From assembly GCA_000091205.1 (NCBI GenBank), contig AP006485.2: a stretch of DNA of 64,000 nt; one strand, written 5' to 3'. The stretch's first letter is position 1, and each line of letters opens with the position of its first letter. The stretch is from Cyanidioschyzon merolae (taxonomy: Eukaryota). Shown one piece after another: positions 1 through 59,973 of the stretch. The translations under genes and the position numbers were made by a program. Below the pieces are notes generated by a model. That model saw nothing but the letters and a program-made list of their open reading frames with translations, did not search any database and was not told the DNA's origin.

Positions 1-2445
1 CTTCTCGTCGTCGTCGTTACCCATTACGTCGTGCATCCAGACCAGAACCCATCGACTGCGATCTGCACGACTGTCTACTCGTCGATCCGTCCCACTACAT
101 ACCTCCTGTGAGCAAAGATATCAGAGGAGACACAGCGTGTGAAGTTTCGCGCATTTGGCACAAACAATGGCGAGCAGACACGAGTGCACGAAGGAGAAAG
201 CACGCTCCTGGAGGATATCGTCAGGCGTTGAAGGACACACGATCGATTTCGAACTGAAACGCGAAAGCCTTGAAGTGGAGCGGCGGATGCTCGTCTCAGT
301 CGACGAGACGTTATTCAGGACAAATGGTCAAACGATGTGTGCGTACTCAATGTGGAGCAAACTGTTGTGTATGAATAAACGGAAACCGAGCGTGACGTCA
401 ACGCGAGCTCTCGGGGCAGTTCAGTGGAGCGCTTTCCCACATAAATCACAGAATCGATACGCTCGTTCAACACAGCATCCTTCGTTGAACCACGCTTCGT
501 GGCTTCTCCGTCCCGCATTCCTCTGTCCAGCTGCTGCACGGCAACTTCGCTTTCCGCCACTCACAAGCGGTCAACAAGTGCGCTGCTGAGACTGGCGACG
601 AGCTGCCCTTCGTGACAACCTCTGTTCCCTCGTTCAGTGCAGTCGAATGCCTCCGCTCTGTTCGCAGAGGCAACGTCTGCGCTCTCGGATCCATAGACGG
701 GTCATTCGCGTGCACGTTGCGGTTCGTTCATAAACCGTTATTTCGACAGCCGTGCTCGCTCTCCTCAATCGCTAATCTGCTCTGTTGGTTCTGTGTTCGA
801 GAACCGGGGCGAACGGAAGGCCGCGCTTCGGTCCATGAGCGCGCACACCGTGGAAAAGAGGAGCAAGCGCCAAGTAGGCAGCAGTGGATACATATATCTT
901 TAGGAAAGGTACGCTCCGGTCCCGTCGTGCACCCCGTGCGCCCGAGTCCTGATGAAAACTAACCGATATGGCGCATCGTGATGATACACATGCCAACCTG
1001 CCAAATGGAGGACTCGCACTGGAAACCACCAGGCAGGCAAAGAAGCAAGAATGCTCCGGAATACGGGGACGAGCAGCGCCTGGAAGGAAAAATATCGGTG
1101 CAGCTATTGCTCAGTCTGGAACGGTCATCATAGCCTCGCTACCGAAACACACATCAACCGGGAGAATCACCCAAAAAGGAAGATACAGGGCGCCCTAAGG
1201 GGATGCGTAGCTTCTGACTCGAGCAGGGCTCGCTCCGCTTCCTTCGCTTTGACGTACCCTGTCAGGGTACGGCGCGTCGGCATCACCGGTGCAGCGCTGT
1301 CAGCTGTTCCAAAGCGTCTTGAAGGTTTCGATCAAATCGTCGTGCGACAACGTAACGGACACTCAGGGCAGACGATGCGAACCGTCCTGATTGTAGGATC
1401 AGTGATGTGTATACACGTTTCACAGAGGACCTCGAAGTTTCGGTGCGCCTGTCGTCGCTTCGAAGACCTACAGCGTCGGTGCCAATACGTACCAACGTGA
1501 ATCCCCGAAAGCCGAAATCATAGGCAGGCTCGTGTCGGGCGCTTCATGAGGCGCTGTATGTGCGTATTCGCGCCTCAGCTCACGGGCCCAGACTCGTGGC
1601 GACTAGTTCAAATGAATCTGCGTAACAGATACGCTACGAGTTTCCAGGCGGCGCATGTGAACCGTCTTTGGCAAGAGTACATGGGAGCGCGCCGGGGTTC
1701 ACAACGGTGTCTATCGTAAAGAGGCAGGAAACTTGCATTCGGCAACGTGTTGAATGCGTTGCAAGAAAAGGAATGGACTTGAACGTCGCGTTGTTTGATC
1801 GTAGCGTATTGGGCTGAGCGTGCTGTAGGACGCGAAAAGCGCACCCCTGTTCACTCGACAAGAGCGTACACCGAGTGCAGGAATCTGTGCTGCACGGTAT
1901 CTATCGAATCGTTCAGAACGACATACGAACACCGAGAGTGGGCGTGCACTGTGAAACTGGTAGAGAGGAAAACGCTGAAACACGGCCGAATGCACTTCAT
2001 GGTGTCCAGTACGCTGAGCGAACTTCACATACCGAAGCACTCGATGATCAGAGTCGTTGCTGTAGCGTACATCCAGCAGCCGTCGTAGGGAGACGCTCAA
2101 GCACATGCTGCACCGAGACTCTAATGCATCGATGAACCTACGGAAATGTCTTGCGCTTCCAGAATGTCTACCGGGTTGATGTCGAGCGAACGTTCAAGTA
2201 ACTGTTTCGAACTCGGACGAGGGAACGTCTCGAAACAATGAAGCCTTTGGGTGTGAAAAAATGTGGCAAGGGTAGCTGGCATTGGATTCTCGCCTGAAGC
2301 AAGGCACTGGTATGGTACATTTCGCAATGCAAAGTGACTGAAGCGCCCTATGTCTATATAGGTACCGGTACCAGTGTTCCTGTGTCATTGGTGAGCAGTA
2401 AAGATGATCCAGTATTCGATACTTTGAGCATACTCCATTTCGATG
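1..2445. repeat. Large dispersed or segmental direct repeat, copy A (at least 2,445 bp; left edge cut by the window start); about 98-99% identical to 27779-30223
   Basis: Direct comparison: positions 1-2445 align colinearly with 27779-30223 at a constant offset of 27,778 with only scattered substitutions. The ORFs inside (155-589, 1051-1500 and others) differ by mixed substitutions between the copies and match no family I recognise. A perfect hairpin acgtaccctg-t-cagggtacg lies at about 1253-1275. Confidence 0.9.
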
Positions 2446-3286
2446 TTTCCGGGGAACCCCGGTTAGACTTTTCGAGTGTATACCATAGAAAAATGGATCA
2501 CTGTTGTGAGGTCATTGTAGTTGACTCGTGAACGCGTTCGTGCAACGCTCGGTGCGACTCCACCAGTATCTGCGTCCGTCTATGTGTGTTCGTGTGTATC
2601 AGGGCATATGTTTTTCAACAAGTTCTGCGCATTGCTTTGCGACGCACATCAACGCCTGCGAAAAGCGTACACCATACCGTCGATACCGGGACTACGCGCT
2701 CAACCGCTGCGTCCGTCACTGCCACTAGACGTTGAGCCGCGCTCTCAGCTCTCCAGGCATTCATCTGCCGTATTCATGTTGCTGAGACTCCAAGAACTGT
2801 AGACCTAGCATGACAGTAAATGTTCACGTGCAGAGAGATGAGAAACTGCAGAGAAATACGAACCTTTCATATGTAGATATTAGGGATTGTGTAGCCTGCA
2901 CAGCATATCAAGCTTGTACTGCTCATCTCTACACATCCCATACAAAGCAAAACGAGACCCGGCTCCAGTCTTATATGCCAAATACCTCCTTTCCCGCACC
3001 TGCAATACCTTGTCAGTTCCATGCGAGTCTCCCATTCAAGAACGTCAAGACGAGAGCCTTGTTGCTACGAAGGTGCCGCGAACACTGCGGCGTCGACCGC
3101 ATCCAGAACACTCAGGTTTTCCGTTTAGTTGTTGCCCGAGCGACTGGATGTTTTGGACTTTTCCCGCAGATGCGAAACATCTTCGCCAAGACTCGATCCG
3201 AGAATAGCTCTCAGCGCAACTCTAGCGCGAATGTGAGAGATCGACCAACAGCCGTTCGGGAAACGGGTAGTTCGCAGACAAAACGC

Positions 3287-10701: not shown

Positions 10702-11029
10702 TCTTGCCACGAGCGCTCGGATCCAGGCCTTGAGTAACGTCTGAGATGCGAGCACTGCCCGTTGTGTGATTGTTTGCGTGCGAGGGTGCGTTTGTGTCGG
10801 TATACCACCGGTAGAGCGGGCGCACAGTCGAACGATGCCACCGGTGTACAGAAGCGGCGAGAAACCCGCTTTCGAGGAAACGTCTCCAAGTGATGTGCAG
10901 ACGCCCCCTCGTCTTTCTCGGCGGGCCATCTTCTACTGATTCCAAGTTTTTCTCATATAGTTCGACTTGGGAAGGTTGTCCAACAACGTTCCCTCCTGTG
11001 GACTCTGGAGGTCTTTTCTCCATTACCAA

Positions 11030-13089
11030 TCATCTCCGTATATTGATTGCGGCGTTAAAGTCTCGGTTAAAAACCTCCATCCGTTTCTTGCGATTGGAAG
11101 TTGTACTCACTAATGCAAATAGCCCCTGCACTTTTGCCCTCCTTTCCATTTGCTCCTCCGTCAGCGGTCCGTACTTTGCTATATCCTCATGGCTCCTCTG
11201 GCACTTTTCCATCTCCACCCTCTGAAGTGTACACCCCAGCTCGTGGTGTGTATAGGACGTTCGGAACTCATCTATCGGTATTATAACAAAACGCCGTGCA
11301 CACTCCTTGCACGTTCTTGTCGTTGGAGCTGGTGTACACCCTTTTTGGGTCTTCCATCGCCCTGCTCCGTATGCCACTACCAGCCTCTGATTTTCATCCT
11401 CCTTCAGGGCACTCAACTGATTGAAAAAATTCGCGAGCGCCCGCTGCTTTCCACAATACAAATTCATTCGCAAACGAGCCCACCGGGGCTTTGCATACTC
11501 CTCGCACAGCGTATCTCAATGAGGAACGCGAACTTCCATGAATTTTCGAAAAGCTGCAAAGTCCGCTCCTCGGCTCGTCACCTCGCTCAAAGCTTCCAGG
11601 TGATCCTTCATTCCTACATTCCATGCAGCAATTTCCTTCCTTGCATTCATTGTTCCCGGTTCTCGATAGTATATTGCTCTCGAGAACCTCAAAAAAGACG
11701 CATGTCTTTCTGACGTAAGTTACCATCAGCACTATCTTCCGTACGCTTCGGTGCTGCGATGGTTATGATATTCGTATTCCCAGGGTCCGCGCCGACGACA
11801 AAGTCGTTATCCTGCACTTTCTGCGTGGCAAAATCCTCCTCCTTCTCATCTTCATGCATCGCCACGCCAACGACAAAGTCGTTAGCTTGCACCTCCTGCG
11901 TCGCAGCACCCGCCTCCTTCTCATCTTCATCGTTCGTCACGCCAAAGACAAGGTCGTTATCATGCACCTCCTGCGTCGCAGCATCCTCCTCTTTGTTTTC
12001 TTCATGCTTCGCCGCGTGAACGACAAGATCGTTATCCTCTACCTCCTGCATCGCTGGATCCGACTCCTTCTCATCTTCATGCTTCGTAACGGGCGAAGCC
12101 GAGGGCGGAACTGGACGATTTTTCTTCAAGCGCCGATATTGTACACACGTGGCTACTCCATCGGTTTCGATCATCCCAGTGAATACCTTTTGTTTGCTCA
12201 CTTCAGATGTTTGAAATCGAAGATATTCTTCCAGTACGTCTCACGATTTTCGCCGGAGAACTCCTCCTTGTTAGCATTGAACACCGGACTGATCTCCCTC
12301 ATGATGCCGTAAAGGATTCTGGAGTCCATACTCACAAAATGTGACTTGATGTTGCACATTGGAACCACGTTGAAGCGCTTCCCCACTAGGGCAGCCTTCC
12401 ATCTCTCCCACGCTTCATTTTTCCCCACTCAGCTTCACCTCTGCCTTGCGTTCGAGTTCACGGTCCAAAAACACGAAATACCGCAGGACGAGGCGATAGT
12501 ATCTTTCCTTATCTTCTCTCAACTCTGATATCTTGTCTGTTGGATTCGCTAACTCCAAGACTGCGCGGTGCTCTTGTATAGCCGCACGGATTACAGAAGC
12601 TTCATTTGTGCCCCTGCGTGACGCCTTCTCTCCGACGAATTCGATCTCATCTTCATGCTTGCGATCGTTCGTGATGCCGTTGATAATCGCCCATTTTCCG
12701 TTACGAGAGATGCCCGGGTACAGTGCAAACACGGCGCGTATCATGAAATGTTCGAGGTTCATTCTGAAATGGTTCTTCAGATTCGTCAGGTACTTCATCG
12801 CCCCATATGTGTAGATATCCGCGTCACCACTGTATCGGGTACCCTCGAGGAGGAATTCCGCGAAGTTTTCGTGGAGGACTTTCACCCGCTTATTTTCCCT
12901 CCGCGCTTCCTCTATGCCAAGCATCAAGTGACGAAAAAATGTGTTGTCGAAAAACTCGTCCGGAAGCTCGACCGTTTCCATGTTCGTCACGTAGCGATAC
13001 ATCTCCCTCACCAAATGCGTCGGTCCTGAAGAAGCCTTTATCATACTCATGGAGTACGACTCGAGACGGTTTTTGATGGCGTCCCGCAA
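11030..13089 (-). pseudogene. TnpB/Fanzor-like RuvC plus zinc-ribbon nuclease gene, near full-length but split over at least four reading frames (frameshifts)
   Basis: The C-terminal piece (11030-11473) ends ...CKECARRFVIIPIDEFRTSYTHHELGC...NRDFNAAINIRR*, i.e. a zinc ribbon, a TS-motif and the D-x-NAA-x-NI RuvC-III block typical of IS605 OrfB/TnpB and Fanzor. An upstream piece (11689-12201) carries FVVGADPGNTNIITIAA, which is RuvC-I GxDxG-like. The N-terminal pieces 12198-12428 and 12415-13089 are clean but joined by +1/-1 shifts at homopolymers (ggggaaaaa, aaacaaaag). A 26-aa x4 tandem repeat sits just before RuvC-I. Confidence 0.6.
11830..12125. repeat. About 78-bp x4 tandem repeat in-frame inside the Fanzor-like gene (peptide unit DNDLVVxxxxHEDEKEEDAATQEVx)
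   Basis: Repeated protein units in ORF 11689-12201 and a matching nucleotide periodicity (...gacaaagtcgttatcctgcac... recurring about every 78 bp). Confidence 0.7.
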
Positions 13090-13642
13090 CTTTTCCTTCT
13101 ACGGATCCTTGATATATTTAAGAACACAGGCTTTCACCACTATCTCGTTGTACAGTTGCCTTTCTTGCCGCCTTCGACGTAGAACCTCGCCCCCTTTTGA
13201 TTCCTCATCACTTCCTGTTCCTTTTCGCTCCGCCATGTTTATCCTTCTTTTCCGACGGCCGGCGATATCGGCCCTCCGGGATCCTCCACTTCCATTTCCA
13301 TGACTTTCCTTTTTTTATTTTTTTTGAAAACGAACGCTCTTTGAACGCTTCTGTTATATACTTCGAAAAAACACTTGAATATACTCAATTGAGGGTCGGA
13401 ATAGGATGGAACAAAAAACCTATACTTTGCTACGACCTCAACGCGAATACAACTTTTACAGTAGAATAGCACGCCAGTGATCAGGATCACTGTTCCCCTC
13501 AGGAGCGACCAGAGCGTCGTGTCTCGTGCCCGCCGGATCTGCCAGGTGCGCGTGCACGCGCAGCGGCTGACATGCGCCCCGCCGCCGATCAGGAGATTGC
13601 TTCTGGATATGTCTATCTCAAAGCGTGATAACCTGTTGCTGA

Positions 13643-15529: not shown

Positions 15530-16239
15530 ACCAAGGGCAGCATCGGCGATCGACACAGCGCTCTGCACGTTGAGCGCGACTCGTGTGCTTGCCAATGACC
15601 GGGCTTGGAGTCGCAGGGGAACCTGCTCGTCAGCTATCAGGTGCCGTGGACCTGGTCGGGATCGGTAGCATCTGCAGTCGTGCGGTCCAAGCGTCAGACA
15701 GCACCGTGCTGACAACAAACGCCTACTTGGCGCGCTTGTACGACAGGACGCTGTGCAGAAGCATGTTTGGTGTCGTTTTCGACGATCTGAGGATCGATGC
15801 AAGGTGCGTCTTCGAGGAAGGCATGCTCGGACGGCAAAACTTGGGTACCAAGGGCACTTCGATGCCTGTTCGCATCGATCGCTGGTATGCTGCGTATCTG
15901 GTAGAGGCGAATACCGTACATAGAGGTATGCGCTGGTGCGTCCGTTCACCGTCTCGATCCGCTGCTGGTACGCGGCTGCGTTAGAATTTCGAGTACCCGA
16001 CGCTGTTACGACGTAAAGGCGCTTCGGTTGATAGTCTTTCAACTCAATTTTGTTTCATCGCGGCTACGGTATATAGGAGGAGGACGAAATCACTAGGTAA
16101 TGTTCTGTATAGATTGTGGAGGAATTGCATACGGCATATGTATTCTTCACTGAACAATGCAATGATGATTGCATTGCACCTCGATGTCAATCATACCACT
16201 ATACGCAGATGCTGAACGAGCACTGAAAGAAACAAGTAT

Positions 16240-16608
16240 ATGCGCTCCGGGCCGAAACCTGATATTCTCAAAGCCTGCCTGCAATCAGTGATAGAAAACG
16301 ACCAGTTGATCAATTTACGGGAAGCAAATGCGTCCATAGTAGCCACCACGGGCGTCTCTGTTTCGCAACAGCTTATTCGCGTGATCCTGAAAACACCGGG
16401 ATCCAATCGCAATAAAGTGCTAGTTCATTCACAGCCAGCTTCTACCGAAATCGCAGGCACGGTGTTCCTGGAACGTCGCGATCGGTATGAAGCACAGGAA
16501 CATCAGTTTGTTTTCTCACTCGATGAGACTTGCTTCAAACGAGACAATCGCAGCGTAGATGAATACTTGCTGAGCGGGAGCCCGTTGCTCGTACGCTCGA
16601 AATCGTAG
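16240..16608 (+). mobile_element. Tc1/mariner-like transposase N-terminal fragment (HTH plus first catalytic-Asp region), degenerate
   Basis: HTH-like SIVATTGVSVSQQLIRVILK followed by FVFSLDETCFKRDN, which resembles the Tc1/mariner xFSDExxF block holding the first DDE Asp. It lies in an AT-rich island (about 15980-17600) next to Fanzor relic copy 2. The ORF is truncated. Confidence 0.35.
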
Positions 16609-17139
16609 AGAACGTCGACATCATCATCTGTTCTAGCTGCGGTGGATTCATTTGGCTGCCTCAGTTCCGCTGAAGAGAACACTCATGCAGCAGCGCCCTC
16701 TTTTTGTAGAGTCATTGAAGACTTGTCCCAGACGTCTGGTGAAGTCCTTCTATTGGACATAGTGGTATTTAGCCGTTCTGCTTCAGTTCGAGCATTTTTA
16801 GATTCTTTCGAGGGGTAGAGCTGGTTTCATTCCTTCTTCTCAACCATGGTTCATCCCCATAGAAGAAGAGTTTTGCGTCCTGAATCGTCACGATCGCTCC
16901 ACCGGGCGAATTGATGAAGCGTTCAGCACATGGTGACCAACCGGGGCACATTTGGTCTTTATTCCGCATGTGCTGCTCGATGCGGGAAGGTCGTCATCTC
17001 AGGCTATAAACAAATGCGTTCATTTTCGAAAAATCTAAGGGATGAGCTGGAATATACACCCTAGGATGTTGAGTTGGAGCGAGGCCAGTGGAGCGTTTCG
17101 TCGACAGATCAGCACGAAGAGCTAACAGAGCACCCAATG

Positions 17140-17252
17140 GCACAGCGTACACGGCTTCGTGGTCTCCTTGTATCGATTAGTTCAACCAGTGGCAACAAAC
17201 ACATGGAGTTCACGAACCGAGACTTTAACGCTGCGATCAGTACAAGACGGTG
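17140..17252 (+). pseudogene. TnpB/Fanzor-like C-terminal relic, copy 2 (RuvC-III block only)
   Basis: RLRGLLVSISSTSGNKHMEFTNRDFNAAISTRR aligns residue-for-residue with copy 1 AKVQGLFALVSTTSNRKKRMEVFNRDFNAAINIRR. Confidence 0.55.
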
Positions 17253-17795
17253 TGCGATGCTAAAGACGATACCCGATTGGCAGACGCGATCTAACTTTGT
17301 GGAGCAGCCTCTTAGGCATAAAATAAACAACGAGAAAATGAAACCGATCGCAGACAGCCGGTCTAAACAGACTGGAAGGCGTCTTCGAGTGGATTTTCAT
17401 CTACGCTCCATGGTTTTGAGGCATTCCTTTTTGTCTCACTGACGATGAGCCTAATCGAGAAGGAAATCAAGGCCAGTATCTGATATCGAAACTTGTTGCT
17501 GCCCAACAGATAGATTTAGGGTTCGTTCTTCTGTATCAGAAAACCTAGAGTGCGGCATCCGCGTATTCTGTATCCAGATATACTCACCCGCGAATAGCTG
17601 CCGCACTGCCGTGGCATTCGGGCGATATCTGTCTTTCAGACAACATTCTCGCTTCCACGCAAAGCCCCTGACGCACAGGCCGCGGGCAGCACAACCAGTA
17701 CCTGCAGAGAACATCGTGCAACGCTCCCCAGCGTTTGAAATCTGTCGAGGTTGCCGTGCTCTCGCTCCGATGAAAGCTCCAAACGCATGCAAAGC

Positions 17796-23035: not shown

Positions 23036-23310
23036 AGCACTCTCTCATCGGATGAGCGAGCGTCTCGCTGTTCCACGTGCCTGCATCATAGATGAAGCGT
23101 CCAGGCATATGGACTCAAGTTGCTGACCGAACTTTCTCTGATAGCGCCTCAGCTGGGTGGCATTGCCTTCGGGATAGCACTCTCTCATCGGATGAGCGAG
23201 CGTCTCGCTGTTCCACGTACCGGCATCATAGATGAAGCGTCCAGGCATATGGACTCAAGTTGCTGACCGAACTTTCTCTGATAGCGCCTCAGCTGAGTGG
23301 CATTGCCTTC
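23036..23310. repeat. 140-bp x2 tandem duplication copying the last ~40 codons plus stop of the downstream minus-strand gene
   Basis: agcactctctcatcggatgagcgagcgtctcgctgttccacgt...ggcattgccttc occurs twice back-to-back. ORFs 23045-23248 and 23185-24330 end with the same peptide NATQLRRYQRKFGQQLESICLDASSMM..RGTARRSLIR. Confidence 0.85.
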
Positions 23311-26354: not shown

Positions 26355-27778
26355 AGATCAGAGCCTGAAAGCGAGTGAACTTGTGTGTTCGTGTATAACC
26401 GACCTTTGGAGAGAACGTATGCGTTGGAGGACGCGAAGCACCAACCAAACACGTATCCTCTCTCAAAGCCGAGGATGCGATACTGTCGCAGAGGAACTGC
26501 TGCTGACGCCCAACGTACCGAGATGATCTGTTTATATAAGCTGTGGCATAGGGCGAGAGTTAAAGATCCTCCTCCATCAAGAATGAGCAATGGATACATT
26601 GTTCTGGTGCTGGTTTATGGAAGTGTGGATGCCCTTGTAGAGGATCCGCGGTCGATACCCTGCGTAACGACGGCTGGTGCGTATGTCGTCAATAGACTGA
26701 CTGACTGTCGAGGAGGCGGGAATCCGTGTCCCCATTGAAAGAACAGCACACCCGTAAACGAGCTCGTCCGCACCGCAAGTTCAGTCCTTGATCTGGTGGA
26801 GGAACCTGGCACCCGTTCGGAGTCGAGGCGAGCGGTCTATGGAACGCCCATTTGCGGGTTTCTCGGAAAGATATAGAAACACTCCCGCTGCGCGGCAGCA
26901 GCTGCAGACTGAAGTCTATTGGGCGACGCGCACTCTGAGTTGTGTTCCCTCTGGGCGCACGTGCTCATGAATGCCATTACATTGTCAGCCATGATGATGC
27001 CTCAAGGACGTCCGAGTTCACTTGGCACTATTCAGGTCCAGTTGACTGATCATAGCGGGACGGCGTCCAATGAACTGCGCAGAGCGGGTCCGCTGCACCA
27101 GACACGACGATCAGTTCGCTCACTGGCCAGAATGAACGCTTCCAACCAAATGCTTCGTATTGTGCAAACGCTACCGTTTACCTGGATACCGATACCAGCC
27201 TCTGGACGGGCGCCTCCGTGCTCCACTGTTGACGCTGGTGCGATGCACAAATCGATGATCCCGTTGGCGTCAACACTCGAACGATTCCGCGACCTGCCGG
27301 GGACGGCTCGGAGGCACCAGAGTCTCCTGAAACGTGACTCCTGTTAAATGCACTACATCTGCCGTTTTACGCAGTGCATCGGCATTGTGTCTGGGCCTTG
27401 TATCGAGCCGGTGCGAAGGCGCTCCGGGTCGAAAGCCAAGGCGATGTGCACCGTACGCATCTGGTGTCAGGAGGTCGCGCACTTGCGCCTCAAGTGAAGC
27501 GAGGAACACTGAGCACCTGTCTTTCAGACATGAGTGCGACGATGAATTCCTATTCCTCAATATCCAGGAAATCGTCTATGATACACAGAATAGTGAGTCC
27601 TGGAATGCAGAGGGCAGCACAACCTTTTTGGTTTTTCTCGAAGATATTTAAAATACAGAATTGGAACATTTTGATTCGAGAACGATCATGGTAGGGTTTT
27701 ATGTGTTCATGGCTCGCTTGAGACATAAAAGCCTCATACAAGTCAGCCATTCGACGGTTAGCGGGTGGATAAACCACC

Positions 27779-30223
27779 CTTCTCGTCGTCGTCGTTACCC
27801 ATTACGTCGTGCATCCAGACCAGAACCCATCGACTGCGATCTGCACGACTGTCTACTCGTCGATCCGTCCCACTACATACCTCCTCTGAGCAAAGATATC
27901 AGAGGAGACACAGCGTGTGAAGTTTCGCGCATTCGGCACAAACAATGACGAGCACACACGAGTGCACGAAGGAGAAAGCACGCTCCTGGAGGATATCGTC
28001 AAGCGTTGAAGGACACACGATCGATTTCGAACTGAAACGCGAAAGCCTTGAGGTGGAGCGGCGGATGCTCGTCTCAGTCGACGAGACGTTATTCAGGACA
28101 AATGGTCAAACGATGTGTGCGTACTCAATGTGGAGCAAACTGTTGTGTATGAATAAACGGAAACCGAGCGTGACGTCAACGCGAGCTCTCGGGGCAGTTC
28201 AGTGGAGCGCTTTCCCACATAAATCACAGAATCGATACGCTCGTTCAACACAGCATCCTTCGTTGAACCACGCTTCGTGGCTTCTCCGTCCCGCATTCCT
28301 CTGTCCAGCTGCTGCACGGCAACTTCGCTTTCCGCCACTCACAAGCGGTCAACAAGTGCGCTGCTGAGACTGGCGACGAGCTGCCCTTCGTGACAACCAC
28401 TGTTCCCTCGTTCAGTGCAGTCGAATGCCTCCGCTCTGTTCGCAGAGGCAACGTCTGCGCTCTCGGATCCATAGACGGGTCATTCGCGTGCACGATGCGG
28501 TTCGTTCATAAACCGTTATTTCGACAGCCGTGCTCGCTCTCCTCAACCGCTAATCTGCTCTGTTGGTTCTGTGTTCGAGAACCGGGGCGAACGGAAGGCC
28601 GCACTTCGGTCCATGAGCGCGCACACCGTGGAAAAGAGGAGCAAGCGCCAAGTAGGCAGCAGTGGATACATATATCTTTAGGAAAGGCACGCTCCGGTCC
28701 CGTCGTGCACCCCGTGCGCCCGAGTCCTGATGAAAACTAACCGATATGGCGCATCGTGATGATACACATGCCAACCTGCCAAATGGAGGACTCGCACTGG
28801 AAACCACCAGGCAGGCAAAGAAGCAAGAATGCTCCCGAATACGGGGACGAGCAGCGCCTGGAAGGAAAAATATCGGTGCAGCTATTGCTCAGTCTGGAAC
28901 GGTCATCATAGCCTCGCTACCGAAACACACATCAACCGGGAGAATCACCCAAAAAGGAAGATACAGGGCGCCCTAAGGGGATGCGTAGCTTCTGACTCGA
29001 GCAGGGCTCGCTCAGCTTCCTTCGCTTTGACGTACCCTGTCAGGGTACGGCGCGTCGGCATCACCGGTGCAGCGCTGTCAGCTGTTCCAAAGCGTCTTGA
29101 AGGTTTCGATCAAACCGTCGTGCGACAACGTAACGGACACTCAGGGCAGACGATGCGAACCGTCCTGATTGTAGGATCAGTGATGTGTATACACATTTCA
29201 CAGAGGACCTCGAAGTTTCGGTGCGCCTGTCGTCGCTTCGAAGACCTACAGCGTCGGTGCCAATACGTATCAACGTGAATCCCCGAAAGCCGAAATCATA
29301 GGCAGGCTCGTGTCGGGCGCTTCATGAGGCGCTGTATGTGCGTATTCGCGCCTCAGCTCACGGGCCCAGACTCGTGGCGACTAGTTCAAATGAATCTGCG
29401 TAACAGATACGCTACGAGTTTCCAGGCGGCGCATGTGAACCGTCTTTGGCAAGAGTACATGGGAGCGCGCCGGGGTTCACAACGGTGTCTATCGTAAAGA
29501 GGCAGGAAACTTGCATTCGGCAACGTGTTGAATGCGTTGCAAGACAAGGAATGGACTTGAACGTCGCGTTGTTTGATCGTAGCGTATTGGGCTGAGCGTG
29601 CTGTAGGACGCGAAAAGCGCACCCCTGTTCACTCGACAAGAGCGTACACCGAGTGCAGGAATCTATGCTGCACGGTATCTATCGAATCGTTCAGAACGAC
29701 ATACGAACACCGAGAGTGGGCGTGCACTGTGAAACTGGTAGAGAGGAAAACGCTGAAACACGGCTGAATGCACTTCATGGTGTCCAGTACGCTGAGCGAA
29801 CTTCACATACCGAGGCACTCGATGATCAGAGTCGTTGCTGTAGCGTACATCCAGCAGCCGTCGTAGGGAGACGCTCAAGCACATGCTGCACCGAGACTCT
29901 AATGCATCGATGAACCTACGGAAATGTCTTGCGCTTCCAGAATGTCTACCGGGTTGATGTCGAGCGAACGTTCAAGTAACTGTTTCGAACTCGGACGAGG
30001 GAACGTCTCGAAACAATGAAGCCTTTGGGTGAGAAAAAATGTGGCAAGGGTAGCTGGCATTGGATTCTCGCCTGAAGCAAGGCACTTGTATGGTACATTT
30101 CGCAAGGCAAAGTGACTGAAGCGCCCTATGTCTATATAGGTACCGGGACCAGTGTTCCTGTGTCATTGGTGAGCAGTAAAGATGATCCAGTATTCGATAC
30201 TTTGAGCATACTACATTTCGATG
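27779..30223. repeat. Large direct repeat copy B (partner of 1-2445)
   Basis: Colinear about 98-99% identity to 1-2445. Similarity ends at 30223 / 2445, and the flanks beyond are unrelated. Confidence 0.9.
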
Positions 30224-33546: not shown

Positions 33547-35232
33547 ACATATCGCTATTCAGGGAGATGTACGGAATACTCGGATCGCGACATTTCGCAT
33601 CCCGCAATCACGAACGAATGTGATCAGTGAGTGGTCCGGAACCCCGCACTGGCACAATGGACGGTATCGGCATGGTATCTCGGAGCGTCCATGGATTCCA
33701 GGAAGAGTCGGACGGAACAGGCGCTGTTCAGCACCAGTCGCCGCTCTGAGCAAACATGCCTAGACCTCCTTTTGTGGAACAGAGCTTGCTATATGCGCTT
33801 CACCTTGACGTTTTGAAACGCATCGTCGAGGCGTTTGCATATCCTTTTATGCCTACGCGACAGCATTTGTGAGTGGCCTCGGGCCTGCTGCCACAGTTGC
33901 GACTGAACGCATACGCATGAAGCGCGTGCCCGAGTTGCCCGCAGCAACCTGTCTACCTGATGGACGACGAGGCGCGAACGTTCATGACGGGATTCGCATC
34001 GATTTCGTCACTCCAGGTGCTCTCGATATCGTTTCCCAGAGTCCATTTCAGGGAAATAATAGGTAAGAAAGAACTGGCTGCACTCATTTCAGATACAGAC
34101 TTTGTCCTGTTATCGACATGTGTCGTTGCGAAGCTCTGCATCCCTCGTTTATATGGGTGTTCTCTTGATACAAACGTGTATGTCATATCCGTACCGGATG
34201 AAAATGCAATACTGAACAGTGCGCTCTGTTCTTAGCTTTCGATTGTTCACCAAACTTGTTTTAGACGTAAAGTCTTGGTATCCTGGTTCCAGTACTGCGG
34301 CATTAGGGATACATACCCCGTTTTAGAGCGAGAGGTCGTTTTCTTTCAAAATGGCTCCCGCGACGCCTTGCCGGTGGATTTCGATATATCGCCGGCATCA
34401 CGACGATGCGCAACGCTCTCGACAAGGACTTGTTTACGTAACCGACATCACTATCCAGCTCAGTTGCATGAGCCCCCTGTCTTCTCCTTTGCTCGCGTTT
34501 GGCACGTTCGCGTCATACATTCTTCAAGTTTTATACATCTGTGTTGCAACGCAACCCACTGGGGCGTCCAATTGTGCCAACGGATCGATAGAGAAAAATA
34601 GGCAACGTCGTACTGTGATGACTTTTCACGGCCTCATGCCTCATGATTACCGCACTTGTCCGGTCAAATCATCGACTACTCTAGGATGACAATGCCTCCT
34701 CTGTTTCTGGCCGTCGATGCACCCGCATACGATAACTGCAAGGTACCTCTTAGGACAGGGGACCTTAGACGCATACATTCCTTCTCTTCCCAAGGAAAAG
34801 GGTCATGGACTCGAAATATATAGCCACCGGCAGCGATCGCCCTCAGAGTCAATTGCGTCAAAGCTTTGCACGAACGCAGCGTAGACGAATCGGAATGGTA
34901 CGACTTGTTCTCGAGCCTGGATCTTCGTTCCCGTATCTGTTTCATTATATACGATGTCGAATTCCACATATCCTCTATCCATTAGAACAGCATGCGCTTG
35001 CGCATGCGGCAGAATGAATACTTTCCCAAAGATCGGTTCGGAAGATGCCCGTGATCGTACAGCACGGTACTCGACGCAGGAACGGATGCAGGTGTTGAAG
35101 CGAGCTTCCTGTACCCGTCAAGCGCATGTACAGAGCGATGAAGCAAGCTTTCGAGTGCCACGGGGCAGCGCACAGAGAAAAAGGAATCGGACTAGTAGTC
35201 ATATATTAGAATACCTGACTGCCTTCATGAAT

Positions 35233-35382
35233 AATGGCTGCGACATCTGCACCGATGCACGACACATTGAAGATGAACATGGCGAGCGAGGCGTCAACCA
35301 CGACGTCCATATCTGCTCCAAGAGCGTCGACAACAATCGAAACGAACGAAATCTTGACTTGAACGCTGCCATCATCACGATC
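35233..35382 (+). pseudogene. TnpB/Fanzor-like C-terminal relic, copy 4 (zinc finger plus degenerate RuvC-III)
   Basis: GCDICTDARHIEDEHGERGVNHDVHICSKSVDNNRNERNLDLNAAIITI has CxxC...C plus LDLNAAI. At nucleotide level gacttgaacgctgccatca matches copy 3 gactttaacgcagccatca at 17 of 19. It lies in an AT-rich 2.3-kb intergenic island. Confidence 0.45.
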
Positions 35383-35994
35383 ATCATCATCATCATCCTT
35401 CGACTCCTGATCATGGAGCTCGAGGGACACCAGAGGCCAGCATCGTGAAAGCCGGAGATACGACAGAGAAGAAAGGAGGCAGTCGTCCAAAAATCCCGAT
35501 AACGCTCATGTTGACAACACTGGGAACATACGCAGAATTTCGTATGTGCATCCGAGGTATCTATCTAGAAACTCTATCCTCTCTGTCTAACTAGAATATG
35601 AAGCATCGACGTCTCATTGGAATGCAGCGCTGCCGATCCAGCGCAACCCCGAAGGACGTCGTGCGGCATACCGTCGACGCTGTTACACCGGCTTTTGCGT
35701 TGTTGCAGGCACAAGGGCACCAACACAGGCGAGCAAGCAGTTCATGATCATCATCAAGTCGTTTCTTGGGGCTTACTGCTGTCTTAAAGTGTACACACAA
35801 CGTTGATCTAGAAAAGACGGAGCTTTCAGAGAGCTGCTTCCGATTTGGACACCACGGGAAGGATCGCTTTCACCGGCTACCTCATTTAGCGAGTGCTCGC
35901 TTCCATAAACCGTGCGTCGCCTTTTCATCGAGCGAGCGAACACCAAGAAGCAGCTTTTATGAAACTGAATCAAGCGCATTCGTCTCAAGCTACC

Positions 35995-51160: not shown

Positions 51161-51306
51161 GCATCCCGACTAGTCGCGGGACCTGTACGGGTGTCGATGG
51201 TATTTCAGGCATCCTACGCACCGGAATGTGTCGTTTTCAACATGGACGCACACGCTATATTTTGGATGTCTTCTCACTGTTTTGGACATGAGCCGTTGTG
51301 GCCTCT

Positions 51307-51717
51307 TTACGACAGTGTCCTTTTCCTATCTCTCATCTGAGGCTCGGCATTCGCCAGTTTATCGCATCCCTCTACCGCTATCTTCAACAGTCGCTGGATA
51401 TTGATGGCTGCGTTAAAGTCTCGATTTCGCTGCTTGGGGCATTTCTCGAAACCTATGATGTCGAGATGGTCGTTGCGATCAACGCTTCGCGTGACATGCT
51501 CATCTTGTTTGCATACGGTATCAGAGAACGCTGAGCGACCGTGACTCAGATGTCTAGCGGGGTCTTGCTTTACGACCAGCAGGTATGCTTCTCCGAGAAT
51601 CGCATTGTGGTACGTGAACGCCTGCTTCATGATTCGTTCCTTGCTCTTGACGGGCACAGGAGGTTCCATTCGTTTTCTATTTTCGTTTCCGTTTCTGGTG
51701 CCGTACCCTAGGGTCAT
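51307..51717 (-). pseudogene. TnpB/Fanzor-like C-terminal relic, copy 3 (zinc finger plus RuvC-III)
   Basis: ...TVCKQDEHVTRSVDRNDHLDIIGFEKCPKQRNRDFNAAINIQRLL... The nucleotide block gcgttaaagtctcg is shared with copy 1. It lies in an AT-rich island between divergent genes. Confidence 0.55.
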
Positions 51718-52928
51718 TTTTTGTCTAGGCGATCCCGTTTACGAGAACTCTGTTTGGTATGCACGCAAGCGGGCGTTACTCCACTCGTTTGAGGATTCTT
51801 GGAACGAGATGCTGTCCGTGATGAAACAAGTTCTGGAACTACGATCCAGAACGGAGATCAAGTTGTGAATTTTCCATTCCTCTACGCTTTCTTCGTCGAA
51901 AGCGGTAACGCATTCACCACTGGAAGCGATCGCTGCGACGGCTGATTTCCGAATGCAACAGCCTTTGCCATGCAAACAGAAGAGACGTGAGCTTCTGCGG
52001 ACATATCTCGTGAGAGCCCTCATGCCGGTGACCAGGTTGGATTCGCAGGCGGCCACAATGGGCGTTGGATTCGCCTTTCAAACGGAAACGATCGTTTCGT
52101 TGTGACTGGTGCAGAGAGGCCTCGGCATGAGCTTACGATCAAGTCACCAACGGCTGACGTCGACTATTTTTCGTCATCCATCCATCCATCCAGCCGTGCG
52201 AATCGCTGCGACCACGAGTCGCCTTGGAACACACAAGATCGAGGCATTGAAAAAGGCATGATTTGAGCGTGCTCCATATAAGGGATGGGGAAGTATGGCT
52301 GCTTGTACGCATGAATTGGATAATGACAGGGGCTTTTTTACGAACGCTTCTTCGACGGCGTGGCGAATGCTCTGGATTTCAGTGACTCGACGATTCCCAG
52401 CCACGGAGCGTTGAAGTGGCCACTCAGAAAAGATGACCAAGAATCCTGTAAAAACTCGCGAATATCCGAGCCTTTGTTGCTGCACTTTGAATATCGAGGC
52501 TGGGAATCTATAATAAACTCCGGAGAATCCAAAGACGGGAACAGCGTAACCAGTGCCGTCTTCGATTTCCATCGAGATCGATGAGACTTTTTTTTCTGTC
52601 CGATAGGCCCAAACTAGCGTCGCTGGAATCTGCGGGCTGTCTGAACAACCAGCGATGAATCCCCTCTGATGACGGATACCATTCGGATCCAAGCGTGACT
52701 TTGTGGATCAAATACTATCAGTCATAGATAAATCTTGTCCAGCGGCTGGATAACCACGGGCTGCGTTCTGGCCGACGTGCGCCAGTTTCGGCTGTTCAGG
52801 TCGTTTCGTACACAGCGCTGGTGCGCGCTCTCGTCAGCTGGAACAACTGACTGAGCCCGTCATTCGTGTGGCGGTAGCGCTGGACGCGTGGAGGTTAGAT
52901 CACAGCGCTTGATGCTCCAACACAGACA

Positions 52929-57055: not shown

Positions 57056-58656
57056 TACGATACCAGTCCGCGCTGCCAGCGTAGGAAGCGGGTACCTTCA
57101 AGCGAGCCAAAGTGCCCGCAGTGTGGGTCTAGTGCGCCAAACCTGGGGTTTTGCCACCACTCAACCGGGTTCAGAGCAAGCGGTTCGCTTGATGCGTGTA
57201 CCCTGCGAAACAGCCGTCAGTCTCTCGTTTGTGGCTCAGTGTGGGGACGCAGCTTCGGCTTTGCAAACGTGTACCAGAATCCGGATAGCGCTGAAAAACT
57301 GAGCGAGTGGGTAGCACTTCGCTTCTTCTGAACAGCAGCTCGTCAGCGCCCAGGAGAGGGGGCGCACCGCCCGCCGTGGACCGCACCAACGTCCCAGCGG
57401 GCGTACGGCGAGAGCGTTGTTCTCTCGCCGTTCCTAACTCGACGCAAGCTCGCTTCGGGGCTAGTGTGGAACCTGAACTCCAGCCCCTCCCCCGCTCCAG
57501 GACAAACTCGCGCCCCGCACGCAAACGACGTTCAAAGACGTTGCCTCGTTCCCCACAGCGGCTCGGAGCTAGAACCCGAAGCACATCGATGAGTTTCGGC
57601 AAATTGCTACGCAGATACTCTTTAGTCTTCAGGGACTGACTTGGACTCGCGAGACACGTAACAGCTTTGCTATCGACATAAATGTTCTACTTGACAAGTG
57701 TCAAGCGCAACAATCGAATATGATTCTTCTGTGGTAGATGGTGCATTGATCGGCACTGAGGATAACCATCTTCATGCTTGTACTAGCTGGACGCTTTACA
57801 ACCTCTGGGTACATGCTACTGCTGCTCGTGGATGCTCATCGCGAAGCAGCTTCAGTGATGCGGTGCCTTGATTGCTTCGCACCAAGACCCCGTCACGAAC
57901 ACACTCCGGTACCACCGTCGAGGTCACCCAGCGAAACTCGCACGTTTGTACGCTCACAGATAACCAAAGTGCATGATGGATACGAAGCCTGTGACTGTCG
58001 CTGTTACGGCGAAGAGACAGTTCAAGCGCTCGCTGTGCGCTTGTGCAGAATACGCGTGAACCATGTTTCTAGCGAACCCGCAACTTGCGTGTCTTGTGTA
58101 GTTTCGTGATAGCTGTACGCACTGCGCACCATGGTACGTCCGGAGAACAAGTCTCCAGCACCGAAGCAGTACACTAGTCCATCGCCGAGCGCTCTCCGTT
58201 CGGGTGCGGATCACATCAACCGCAACGCTTCATAAAATCGTCTATGTACCTGGTGCAAGTAGGTGCAGTTGAAGAATCAATAGAAGCCAACACGACGATA
58301 TTCATAGGTTACTCTGTCACTGCACGCGACTTGAGGCCGGTGAGAGCGCACCAAGGCAACGGTTCCGCTGGGGCCGCTTTCGTTCCAGCAGGCAAGCATC
58401 TGATCAGCGGTTCGTCGACTTGTTCGCTACGTCATCTTGCCTTACGCTGCGCGCCTTCTTGGGTATAGAGACGCCTGCTGCACCCCCGTGCCAGGGCCAT
58501 ATGGAACGCTCGTAATTGCGTTACGCGGGCGTACACCATCAAGTTTCGGTTTCTGGCTACGCTCATCAACACCAGCATTTGCGGGTTCTTTTTCTCATTC
58601 TGCTTCCCTCTCCTTCCTCTAGTCGCCGGCTTGGAATACGCCGACGTCTTCGGTTC

Positions 58657-58779
58657 CTGTAAAATCGTCGCCAGCAGTCGACAGATGTTGATGGCAGTGT
58701 TCGTGTCTCGATGTCGCAGCCTTCTGCTGCTGTTCACGCATTTCATGCACAGGCTGGAGTTGCGATAGAGGCATTGCAT
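58657..58779 (-). pseudogene. TnpB/Fanzor-like C-terminal relic, copy 5 (degenerate zinc finger plus RuvC-III)
   Basis: QCLYRNSSLCMKCVNSSRRLRHRDTNTAINICRLL. The RD-x-N-x-AINI-x-RLL matches copy 3 (NRDFNAAINIQRLL). It lies in the 2.9-kb ORF-poor interval between Trm9 and the GOLD-like gene. Confidence 0.45.
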
Positions 58780-59973
58780 GGCATTTTCATTTTAGTTGTG
58801 CTCAGACTTGGAGCGCTCTTGGCATCAGTGGCACTTGACGTGGCTAAAGTGTTTCCCCATGCCCAGCCAAAATTCTTCATCCGTGGACTTCGCTCGGGCC
58901 TGCTTGATCGCTGCATACATACCCGTTCAGGGGTACAGTGGGGCCCCGCCTCAATACCCCGTTCCGTTTTCGAGTCCGCTGCAGTACCGCACCGTTTCGT
59001 AAGATCACTGGCTTCCTCTGACAAATACCCGCGTTGAATACGCTGTACGCTGCAAACGCAAACGCACGCTGTTCCATTCGATAGCGCATTTGTGGAATGC
59101 GGTGTTCTTCACGCGGAAGCAATGCCCCGAAGCAGAATCTAGGCTGGAGATCAGGTCTTGGAATTTCGATTCGTCAACGCTCCCGTCGTGCAAAGGAGTG
59201 ATGCACGCTCGATTGGAAGCGATTGCTGGGATGAATCTAGTCCGATTCCGTTACTCCTTTCGATGTGAACAGAAGATACGGGGGCCCCTGTGAGCGTGCT
59301 CCATGAGCGCTGTTATGCTGGTAGCGCATGCCGTTTCGTCAACGGCCACAACCACAGGAGGATTTTTCATTCGAACGGATTCGATTATTTGGAGTGAGGA
59401 TTTCAGTCAGCTTTTGGGGCTCGGCCTGTGAACATTTCGTCAACGGACCAAGTCGTGTATTTTTCCTCGACAAGACAACAGCTCGAATGGCTGTTCGCAT
59501 GAGTTGCCTCGAAGTAGAACGATCGAAAACTTGGAGGTTGCTTGATTTGAGCATACTGCACGAAAGAAAACGAGAACACAAAACACTTGTACACAGGCAT
59601 TGGATAATGTCATCGGTTATTTTAGAAACCCTTGTTCGCCGGCGTCGCGATTCATCTTGATTCCGGTGGCGTACCGAATGCCATCGGCACACCGTGGAAG
59701 GCACCAATCAGGAAAAACGACCGAGAATCCTAGAACTACACATGAATCCGTGATCCCTACTTGCTGCGCTTCGAATGTTGAGTCTGCTTATCTAACAAGT
59801 TCAGAAAAATAATCCAAAGGCGGTAACGGAGCGAGCACTTCAGGGTCCCATTTTCATCTGACACAGGCGTAGAGCGTCCCCGGCAATCAACATTCCCATC
59901 AGAGCGCTTACGCGAAGCCCTCTCGTCGTTTCACATTCAGCTGTATCAGACAAAAGCGCTCGTGCGACGACCG

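What the first reader, a model, noticed from the sequence alone, without database searches (positions are those of the whole stretch)
17140..17252. Five dispersed relics of the same Fanzor-like family, all keeping only the zinc-finger/RuvC-III end and 3' flank, which may mark a conserved omega-RNA region
Besides copy 1, C-terminal fragments are at 17140-17252 (+), 51307-51717 (-), 35233-35382 (+) and 58657-58779 (-). Their peptides align: TTSNRKKRMEVFNRDFNAAINIRR / STSGNKHMEFTNRDFNAAISTRR / EKCPKQRNRDFNAAINIQRLL / SVDNNRNERNLDLNAAIITI / RRLRHRDTNTAINICRLL. They also share nucleotide blocks, for example gactttaacgcagccatca versus gacttgaacgctgccatca, and copy-1 and copy-4 3' flanks both carry ...tggag...ccagagNcca.... 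In TnpB/Fanzor systems the guide RNA scaffold is encoded across the ORF 3' end and the downstream terminus. Systematic retention of exactly this part, while the 5' parts are lost, suggests either 5'-truncating decay or selection on the RNA-coding end. Every relic sits in an AT-rich, ORF-poor island in a GC-rich gene-dense genome.
Basis: partly seen in the sequence, partly recalled or inferred. Interest (0 to 1): 0.85.

Follow-up and report, generated by a model that had tools for sequence, protein, structure and literature searches.

The report
Dead Fanzor/mariner transposon copies, red alga

Summary
The motifs and peptides are at the stated coordinates.

- **Source:** the window is C. merolae 10D chromosome 3. 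One ORF is exactly CYME_CMC074C.
- **Copy 1** (10837-13553, -) is an 85-86% identical pseudogene of CMe-1A, the Fanzor1 element published by Bao & Jurka in 2013.
- **The other four are not bare 3' fragments and not one family.**
  - 35k, 51k and 58k are complete copies of a ~1.37 kb element, here called family B. It has a truncated Tc1/mariner-type DDE_3 transposase joined to a ~135-aa Fanzor C-terminal stub.
  - The 17k relic is the stub of a different ~1.43 kb element, family D (16005-17435), with probably the same layout; its transposase match is weak.
- **One deletion per family:** copies in related metagenome contigs are colinear with B and D, and some D copies cross the junction, so each deletion probably happened once in a progenitor.
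- **The "3' flank" similarity** between copy 1 and 17k is the coding C-terminal tail.
- **No extra conservation:** stubs and tails are no better conserved than the rest of the elements.
- **RNA structure:** tests on the CMe-1A right end are weak or inconclusive.

Verdict: ordinary transposon decay, low interest.

The parts
17068..17400 (+). Fanzor1 C-terminal stub of family D; the finding's 17140-17252 lies inside it. It covers the segment after RuvC-II, the RuvC-III motif NRDFNAAISTRR and the C-terminal tail. RuvC-I, RuvC-II and the zinc finger are absent.
   Evidence: The CMe-1 family HMM matches positions 594-705, E=1.5e-25. tblastn against copy 1 gives 44% identity over 70 aa, E=7e-9. blastn to the CMe-1A consensus matches 2851-2971 (76%) and 3055-3082.
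16005..17435 (+). Whole family D element (~1.43 kb): a decayed HTH and DDE_3-like transposase (~16250-16930) followed by the Fanzor stub.
   Evidence: It is colinear at 68-70% DNA identity with L052 5912-4558(-), L054, L050, L049 and L066. Pfam DDE_3 is weak (E=0.032). tblastn with the L002 transposase hits 16826-16927 at E=0.047. The LDET and LLLD..F.RS motifs were read by eye.
10837..13553 (-). 'Copy 1': a CMe-1A (Fanzor1) pseudogene covering consensus positions 658-3144. It has GADPG, IDEFRTS and NRDFNAAINIRR, with at least 3 frameshifts, in-frame stops, and two extra 75-nt acidic repeats. It lacks the 5' TE-N2_CMe part and the last 25 nt.
   Evidence: blastn to the published consensus gives 85-86% identity. 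The HMM matches positions 11-708 in three frames.
34187..35569 (+). Family B copy (B35): truncated DDE_3 transposase plus a Fanzor C-terminal stub (CxxC...CxxS, NLDLNAAI at 35353-35373).
   Evidence: It aligns to B consensus positions 460-1813 at 71%. Colinear similarity with B51 and B58 is shown.
51239..52573 (-). Family B copy (B51): truncated DDE_3 transposase plus stub (NRDFNAAINIQRLL at 51403-51423).
   Evidence: It aligns to B consensus positions 470-1802 at 73%.
58499..59876 (-). Family B copy (B58): truncated DDE_3 transposase plus stub (HRDTNTAINICRLL at 58690-58710). It lies directly 3' of an emp24 gene.
   Evidence: It aligns to B consensus positions 452-1825 at 74%. tblastn with the L002 transposase hits 59370-59092 at E=5e-4. 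It matches L001 12458-13319.
1..2445 (+). Family C copy 1, cut by the window start: DDE_3 remnant at 245-412, an internally deleted CMe-1-like Fanzor at 1165-2158 (HRDSNASMN at ~2113), and a right end at 2445.
   Evidence: It is 99% identical to 27779-30223. Colinear HMM pieces span positions 35-659, best E=5e-13. The transposase tblastn hit is E=1e-5.
27660..30223 (+). Family C copy 2; the start is approximate. It holds a decayed transposase at 27673-28190 and an internally deleted Fanzor at 28943-29936.
63000..64000 (+). Family C-like copy 3, which runs off the window end; the start is approximate. A DDE_3 transposase at 63117-63752 is immediately followed by the Fanzor N-terminus at 63748-63846.
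   Evidence: tblastn with the L002 transposase matches aa 72-280, E=4e-11. The HMM matches positions 39-71, E=8e-4. blastn links it to C1 and C2.

Best explanation
The window is a stretch of Cyanidioschyzon merolae 10D chromosome 3 in which about 22% of the DNA is dead DNA-transposon sequence.

**Ancestral element (inferred).** It was probably a Tc1/mariner-type transposon with a DDE_3 transposase gene followed, on the same strand, by a Fanzor1 (TnpB-like, RuvC nuclease) gene that ends next to the right terminus. This layout is intact on one metagenome contig and recognisable in decayed form in family C copy 3.

**Derivatives seen here.**
- CMe-1A (copy 1) is a Fanzor-only element. It was published in 2013 and has ~150 copies in the genome.
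- Family C lost the middle of the Fanzor gene.
- Family B lost the end of the transposase and roughly the first 500 codons of Fanzor.
- Family D lost Fanzor up to just after RuvC-II.

**Why the Fanzor 3' end persists (inferred).** It abuts the right end, which any derivative must keep in order to be mobilised. The deleted progenitors were then copied, presumably in trans. After insertion, all copies decayed neutrally and uniformly.

**Shown:** family identities, element extents, colinearity with copies in related genomes, and uniform decay.
**Inferred:** the direction of the deletions, trans-mobilisation, and the cis-requirement for the right end.
For: **Organism**
- The ORF at 13643-15526 is exactly XP_005535298.1, CYME_CMC074C.

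**CMe-1A identity**
- The published consensus and protein were read.
- The consensus aligns to 13553-10837 at 85-86% identity.
- A profile of the family hits Fanzor structure 8GKH, E=1.8e-5.

**Family B**
- The 10-copy consensus gives Pfam DDE_3 at 39.4 bits (gathering score 28.6), covering profile positions 3-113 of 146.
- Its stub gives Cas12f1-like_TNB at 26.6 bits (gathering score 26.3).
- All three window copies span consensus positions ~452-1825.
- B copies also occur in at least 8 related metagenome loci.

**Family D**
- It is colinear with L052, L054, L050, L049 and L066. L063 and L073 align across the stub junction.

**Ancestral gene order**
- In L002, an intact DDE_3 gene is immediately followed by an intact 652-aa Fanzor homologue.
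- In C3, the transposase (E=4e-11) is directly followed by the Fanzor N-terminus.

**Uniform decay**
-.

**Literature**
- Fanzor1 carried in Mariner elements is described in PMC3627910.
Against: - No terminal inverted repeats or TA duplications could be found in these ~70%-identical old copies.
- Bao & Jurka also found no TIRs for CMe-1A, so the mariner classification of the ends is unproven.
- The DDE_3 signal in family D is weak (E=0.03-0.05).
- Two families (B, D) independently keeping 330-420 nt of the Fanzor 3' end is also what a functional 3' RNA would predict.
- In metagenome loci, secondary CMe-1A fragments mostly include the 3' end. That sample is biased towards the 3' part of the protein.
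- One RNA structure model of the CMe-1A right end shows modest covariation.
Confidence: 0.85

Rival explanations
1. Ghost omega-RNA loci. The stubs persist because the last ~100-250 nt of the Fanzor gene plus the right end encode an omega-RNA scaffold. Intact CMe-1 Fanzor proteins elsewhere in the genome would use it in trans, as with the Spu-1 'ghost' loci of Spizellomyces.
For: - Fanzor omega-RNAs come from the right-end region, and ghost loci exist (PMC10432273).
- Families B and D, and several 5'-truncated CMe-1A copies in metagenome loci, all keep the 3' part.
- Most CMe-1A copies can form a hairpin at the extreme right end, although the sequence and register differ between subfamilies.
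- The structure predicted from the consensus shows more pair types than shuffles (48 against 42, 2 of 500 shuffles).
- Bao & Jurka note that some CMe-1A ORFs remain intact.
Against: - The stub and tail are no better conserved than the rest of B or of CMe-1A.
- No non-coding block is shared between families A, B, C and D.
- RNAalifold finds no consensus structure.
- Folding z-scores of the tail do not differ from ORF controls (p=0.057 after controlling for dinucleotide composition).
- A local three-hairpin model shows no covariation.
- Window copy 1 has lost the 3' arm of the terminal hairpin.
- Rfam finds nothing.
Confidence: 0.08
2. Independent 5' truncation of each copy. Each relic would once have been a full-length Fanzor element that separately lost its 5' part through random deletion or a 5'-truncating insertion mechanism.
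For: 5'-truncated CMe-1A copies with various start points (HMM positions 136, 349-378, 415-418 and 613) do exist in metagenome loci.
Against: - The four window stubs are each preceded by ~0.9-1 kb of element sequence that is colinear with copies in other genomes.
- In B this upstream sequence is a DDE_3 transposase at Pfam level; in D the transposase call is weak.
- The three B copies cover the same consensus interval without large gaps.
Confidence: 0.04
3. Chance resemblance. The short RDxNAA-like peptides at 35k and 58k would be coincidental matches chosen by eye.
For: - Neither peptide is detected by tblastn with copy 1 or by the CMe-1 HMM.
- A loose regular expression also picks up an unrelated site at 27021.
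Against: - 35k, 51k and 58k align to each other and to a 10-copy consensus over ~1.35 kb.
- The consensus stub reaches the Pfam TNB gathering score, with the CxxC...CxxC and NRDLNAAINI motifs restored.
Confidence: 0.02

Closest known systems
CMe-1A, the Fanzor1 element of Cyanidioschyzon merolae (Bao & Jurka 2013, Mob DNA 4:12; 3169-bp consensus, ~150 copies, 734-aa CMe-1 protein)
   Same: Copy 1 is a member: 85-86% identity to the consensus over positions 658-3144, with the same protein motifs, acidic repeats and right end (...GAAAGGCG). The family D stub is a diverged relative of the same protein lineage, at 76% DNA identity over 120 nt.
   Different: Copy 1 lacks the 5' 657 bp (the TE-N2_CMe part) and the last 25 nt, and it is a pseudogene. 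B and D are not CMe-1A copies, since their upstream sequence is decayed DDE-transposase-like DNA that CMe-1A lacks (firm for B, weak for D). B also keeps a CxxC zinc ribbon that CMe-1 has lost.
Mariner-Fanzor1 composite transposons (PGv-1, PUl-1, PUl-2; Bao & Jurka 2013)
   Same: A Tc1/mariner-type transposase gene is followed by a Fanzor1 gene on the same strand. This is seen intact in metagenome locus L002 and in decayed form in families C, B and D.
   Different: Those published elements have 24-33-bp TIRs and TA duplications, and none could be found here. B and D carry only a C-terminal Fanzor stub. No such family was mentioned for C. merolae in the papers I could read.
'Ghost' Spu-1 loci of Spizellomyces punctatus (Saito et al. 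2023, Nature 620:660)
   Same: These are multi-copy loci that lack a complete Fanzor ORF but keep the transposon right-end region, which is where the omega-RNA is encoded.
   Different: Ghost loci have strongly conserved IRs and omega-RNA regions and are expressed and functional. The stubs and tails here are no better conserved than the rest of the element, have no detectable IRs, and their expression is unknown.
Internal-deletion (non-autonomous) derivatives of cut-and-paste DNA transposons, such as Ds from Ac or deleted P and mariner elements
   Same: Internally deleted copies would keep both ends and spread in trans, and each family shares one deletion junction.
   Different: This is general established knowledge. 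Here the ends themselves are too decayed to define, so mobilisation in trans is inferred rather than shown.

Membership tests
Fanzor1 (Bao & Jurka motif D-X(125,275)-[TS]-[TS]-X-X-[C4 zinc finger]-X(5,50)-RD) | RuvC-I aspartate (GxDPG-type motif) | tested here: met
   This is met only for copy 1 (VVGADPGNTNI) and for the family alignment. It is absent from the four stubs (17k, 35k, 51k, 58k), where no HMM match lies upstream of positions 594 or 638.
Fanzor1 (Bao & Jurka motif D-X(125,275)-[TS]-[TS]-X-X-[C4 zinc finger]-X(5,50)-RD) | RuvC-II glutamate followed by [TS][TS] | tested here: met
   Copy 1 has IPIDEFRTSY. The B consensus has only a degenerate VDIWEHLTT. The family D stub starts after this motif.
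Fanzor1 (Bao & Jurka motif D-X(125,275)-[TS]-[TS]-X-X-[C4 zinc finger]-X(5,50)-RD) | C4 zinc finger (OrfB_Zn_ribbon / TNB) between RuvC-II and RuvC-III | tested here: not met
   CMe-1, copy 1 and D have no CxxC...CxxC (TSYTHHELGC...). Only the B consensus has one (KCHGC...LCMKC), with Pfam PF07282 at 26.6 bits against a gathering score of 26.3. Bao & Jurka nevertheless place CMe-1 in Fanzor1.
Fanzor1 (Bao & Jurka motif D-X(125,275)-[TS]-[TS]-X-X-[C4 zinc finger]-X(5,50)-RD) | RuvC-III RD motif (RDxNAAxNI) | tested here: met
   All five sites carry it: NRDFNAAINI (copy 1, 51k), NRDFNAAIST (17k), NLDLNAAI (35k, with R changed to L) and HRDTNTAINI (58k).
Fanzor1 (Bao & Jurka motif D-X(125,275)-[TS]-[TS]-X-X-[C4 zinc finger]-X(5,50)-RD) | Sequence homology to an experimentally characterised Fanzor | tested here: met
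   The family profile hits 8GKH (SpuFz1) at E=1.8e-5, aligning HMM positions 272-645 to chain residues 653-1006. The B stub alone gives no Fanzor hit in the PDB.
Fanzor1 (Bao & Jurka motif D-X(125,275)-[TS]-[TS]-X-X-[C4 zinc finger]-X(5,50)-RD) | Intact ORF able to encode an active nuclease | tested here: not met
   Copy 1 needs three reading frames and has in-frame stops. The four stubs lack RuvC-I, and D also lacks RuvC-II.
Fanzor/OMEGA system | Omega-RNA transcribed from the 3' end of the ORF and the right end, with a conserved structure | tested here: inconclusive
   - RNAalifold finds no structure.
- Folding z-scores match ORF controls.
- Covariation is absent for the hairpin model and modest for the consensus-MFE model.
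- Expression cannot be tested with these tools.
Tc1/mariner-type (DDE_3) transposon | DDE_3 transposase domain | tested here: met
   - B consensus: PF13358 at 39.4 bits against a gathering score of 28.6.
- C3: tblastn with a bona fide DDE_3 protein gives E=4e-11.
- C1 and C2: E=1e-5.
- B58: E=5e-4.
- D is only weak (E=0.03-0.05).
Tc1/mariner-type (DDE_3) transposon | Terminal inverted repeats | tested here: inconclusive
   No terminal inverted repeat was found at the inferred ends of B, C or D. The copies are only ~70% identical to their consensus, so the ends are poorly defined.
Tc1/mariner-type (DDE_3) transposon | TA target-site duplication | not tested
   The ends could not be placed to the nucleotide, apart from the C right end at 2445/30223.
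Ghost omega-RNA loci (Saito 2023) | Right-end / omega-RNA region more strongly conserved than the rest of the locus | tested here: not met
   In family B, pairwise identity is 0.59 for the DDE core, 0.51-0.54 for the stub and 0.49-0.57 for the tail. The CMe-1A conservation profile is flat up to the right end.

The most novel reading that the evidence does not exclude
In C. merolae, mariner-derived elements that keep only the last ~130 codons of a Fanzor gene plus the right end (families B and D) could be 'ghost' guide-RNA donors. Their 3' regions would be transcribed into omega-RNAs that the few intact CMe-1 Fanzor proteins use in trans. On this reading the recurrent retention of the 3' end in independent families reflects a function rather than only the need for a transposon end.
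Probability: 0.07. Interest if true: 0.55.

Novelty: new member of a known kind. Interest (0 to 1): 0.15.

Why it matters
It matters little as it stands. CMe-1A has been described since 2013, and Fanzor genes carried in mariner elements, as well as Fanzor-less 'ghost' loci, are also published.

There are two modest gains:
- C. merolae also holds mariner-type (DDE_3) elements with whole, internally deleted or stub Fanzor genes. This gives a plausible origin and mobilising partner for CMe-1A, which was left unclassified. This link is inferred, not shown.
- Any C. merolae small-RNA dataset could test in one step whether Fanzor right ends and stubs are transcribed, because the genome is tiny and the copies are now mapped.

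Tried and rejected
- **Rfam and tRNA scans of the window** found nothing.
- **Exact-protein look-ups** for six ORFs: only one matched, and that was enough to name the organism.
- **Pfam on single decayed ORFs** of copy 1 and family C gave no or marginal hits. Multi-copy consensus sequences were needed.
- **Pfam on intact homologues:** the local library lacks PF26935 (DUF8286), so there were no hits.
- **RNAalifold on the MAFFT alignment of 38 right ends** predicted no structure, because hairpin registers shift between subfamilies.
- **Folding-energy z-scores** of the tail against ORF controls showed no difference. The raw MFE is lower only because the end is GC-rich.
- **Consensus fold** of the last 102 nt gave z = -1.1.
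- **Inverted-repeat search** at the element ends found no terminal repeats.
- **PDB sequence search with the B stub** returned only a spurious lectin-repeat hit.
- **TE-N2_CMe** (the first 635 bp of CMe-1A): no copy in the window at E<0.01.
- **Considered and rejected:**
  - A trypanosomatid or oomycete origin.
  - Bare 5'-truncated fragments.
  - Chance motif matches.
- **Not run:** structure prediction, judged unnecessary after the 8GKH profile hit and the literature identification.

Full report

A six-frame scan finds RDxNAA-type motifs at 11045-11065(-), 17218-17238(+), 35353-35373(+), 51403-51423(-) and 58690-58710(-). The quoted nucleotide blocks are also present.

The statistical support is uneven:
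- A conceptual protein from 'copy 1' matches 17044-17250 at E=7e-9.
- It matches 51391-51426 over only 12 residues (E=0.14) and does not detect 35k or 58k.
- A profile HMM built from 72 database homologues gives 17068-17400 E=1.5e-25 and 51388-51444 E=0.19. It gives nothing at 35k or 58k.

**2. Which organism and which family?**

The window holds long intron-free eukaryotic genes, including NMT, GlnRS, two emp24 genes, CBF/Mak21 and CNNM. The ORF at 13643-15526 is exactly XP_005535298.1, CYME_CMC074C of Cyanidioschyzon merolae 10D, which sits on a 481,791-bp contig.

Copy 1's conceptual protein has 72 homologues, and the precomputed Pfam tag on them is DUF8286 (weak). A profile of the family hits the solved Spizellomyces punctatus Fanzor structure 8GKH at E=1.8e-5.

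Bao & Jurka (2013, PMC3627910) described CMe-1A in C. merolae as follows:
- about 150 copies, each ~80% identical to the consensus;
- a 3169-bp consensus encoding a 734-aa Fanzor1 protein;
- no TIRs and an unknown classification;
- a 5' 635 bp that equals another element, TE-N2_CMe.

Their consensus aligns to window 13553-10837(-) at 85-86% identity over positions 658-3144. Copy 1 is therefore a known element. It is a pseudogene, because it needs three reading frames and has several in-frame stops.

**3. The '3' flank' is coding sequence.**

Intact homologues continue ~45-60 aa past NAAINIR, as CAVLExRPPExTRxNFxGQPLKVELYE...GRSKKTGRRLH. The consensus stop lies only ~60 nt before the element end.

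The 'tggag...ccagag' block encodes VMEKRPPES. The similarity between copy 1 and 17k ends at consensus position ~3082, still inside this tail.

**4. The relics at 35k, 51k and 58k form a separate element family (B).**

Self-comparison of the window shows colinear DNA similarity 350-1100 bp upstream of the motif in all three. They align over ~1.35 kb.

A consensus built from ten copies (three from the window and seven from related metagenome contigs) gives:
- upstream, Pfam DDE_3 at 39.4 bits (gathering score 28.6), covering profile positions 3-113 of 146, plus a weak Tc3-type HTH;
- downstream, a 139-aa stub with KCHGC...LCMKC...NRDLNAAINI that reaches the Cas12f1-like_TNB gathering score.

The three window copies cover the same consensus interval:
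- B35: 34187-35569
- B51: 51239-52573
- B58: 58499-59876

They are therefore complete copies of a ~1.37-kb element: a truncated mariner-type transposase joined to the last ~135 codons of a Fanzor gene. The Fanzor lineage involved kept its zinc ribbon, unlike CMe-1.

**5. The 17k relic belongs to yet another family (D).**

Window 16005-17435 is colinear at 68-70% identity with elements in L052, L054, L050, L049 and L066. L063 and L073 align straight across the junction into the stub.

The upstream part shows the LDET... and LLLD..F.RS... motifs of a DDE transposase. The formal support is weak: Pfam E=0.032, and tblastn with a real DDE_3 protein gives E=0.047. The stub (HMM positions 594-705) is CMe-1-like.

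**6. Family C and the ancestral layout.**
- 1-2445 and 27779-30223 are 99% identical.
- Both carry a transposase remnant (E=1e-5) followed by a CMe-1-like Fanzor that is missing HMM positions ~178-486.
- At the window's right edge, a better-preserved transposase at 63117-63752 (E=4e-11) is immediately followed by the Fanzor N-terminus.
- Metagenome locus L002 has the same order with both genes intact.
- This is the Mariner-Fanzor1 architecture already described for other species.

**7. Why is the 3' end kept?**

The shared interval of the B copies, and the colinearity of B and D with copies in other genomes, mean that each deletion probably happened once in a progenitor and was then copied. 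The Fanzor gene ends next to the right terminus, so any deletion derivative that can still be mobilised keeps some of the Fanzor 3' end. This last step is inference from general transposon biology.

Selection on the retained part is not visible:
- Among B copies, pairwise identity is 0.59 in the DDE core, 0.51-0.54 in the stub and 0.49-0.57 in the tail.
- Across 38 non-redundant CMe-1A ends, the majority-base frequency is flat at 0.85-0.9 through the ORF. It stays there to ~+250 nt past the RD codon and then drops to ~0.3.

**8. RNA structure at the CMe-1A right end.**
- Most copies can form a hairpin at the extreme end. Sequence and register differ between subfamilies, which is suggestive.
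- RNAalifold finds no consensus structure.
- Tail z-scores equal those of ORF controls.
- The terminal window is more stable mainly because of its base composition. After dinucleotide control, p=0.057.
- A three-hairpin model shows no covariation.
- The MFE structure of the published consensus shows a modest excess: 48 pair types against 42 in shuffles (2 of 500), and 13 pairs changed on both sides against 8.3 (8 of 500).
- Most differences between copies are neutral decay after insertion, so this test has little power.
- An omega-RNA at the CMe-1A right end remains plausible by analogy with Saito et al. 2023. It is not demonstrated here, and the window's relics add no support.

**9.

In the metagenome loci, secondary CMe-1A fragments mostly include the 3' end. 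Their start points fall at HMM positions 136, ~349-378, 415-418 and 613. Only one clear internal fragment lacks the 3' end. The sampling was biased towards the 3' 60% of the protein, so this is only a lead.

**10. Verdict.**

The finding is a set of dead copies of known-type transposons that together make up 22% of the window. 'Fanzor-like' is correct. 'One family', 'only the 3' end retained' and 'conserved omega-RNA region' are not supported. Families B and D are not mentioned in the papers I could read, but their kind is known.

Noticed in passing
window 1-2445 and 27779-30223: There is a 2445-bp direct repeat at 99% identity, 27.8 kb apart. Both copies are decayed transposase-plus-deleted-Fanzor elements, and the similarity stops sharply at 2445/30223. 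A dead element was therefore duplicated recently, either by trans-mobilisation or by conversion. The left boundary is hidden by the window edge.
   Followed up: partly
window 42865-43602: A tandem array of an 82-nt unit has about 9 copies, and the central copies are 100% identical. It lies in a low-GC stretch (0.485). Its nature was not examined.
   Followed up: no
window 11787-12091 (inside copy 1) and the metagenome homologues: A 75-nt tandem repeat encodes an acidic 25-aa unit (..HEDEKE..ATQEVQDNDFVVG..) just before the RuvC-I motif. The number of units varies between copies, from 1 in the published consensus to 3 in copy 1 and up to 5-6 in P0010 and P0069. Many 5'-truncated copies in metagenome loci begin in this zone.
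   Followed up: partly
metagenome loci L003-L077, tail of CMe-1A (codon after RPPE): One codon varies among copies between TGG (W), TTG (L), TCG (S) and a stop (RPPE*TR). Many copies carry the stop at this same position.
   Followed up: no
L041 2521-3494(-) / 3446-4450(+), and L060: Two 5'-truncated CMe-1A copies lie head-to-head. Both start at HMM positions ~367-378, giving a palindromic arrangement of two 3' halves.
   Followed up: no
window 9964-10929(-) and 59974-61032(-): Two emp24/GOLD paralogues each lie directly next to a transposon relic. Copy 1 ends within ~100 bp upstream of the first, and B58 starts ~100 bp after the stop codon of the second.
   Followed up: no
window 13643-15526(+): CYME_CMC074C shares a 90%-identity cluster with CYME_CMQ418C on another chromosome, and both are 628 aa. 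Part of this region may therefore be a segmental duplication.
   Followed up: no
window 51129-51167, 46903-46940, 19996-20018, 24567-24597: Short CAG/CTG-type trinucleotide microsatellites recur and cross-match in the self-comparison. One of them abuts the right end of B51.
   Followed up: no
window 23033-23310: A 138-nt tandem duplication at 97% identity lies at the 3' end of a PALP-domain ORF.
   Followed up: no
right-end flanks of CMe-1A copies in L003-L077: Immediately after the published end (...GGCG), many copies continue with TT/GT followed by G(A/T/G)TGGTG-like or (GGT)n/(GCT)n sequence. This could mean the true end lies ~10 nt further out, or that the element prefers such sites for insertion.
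   Followed up: no
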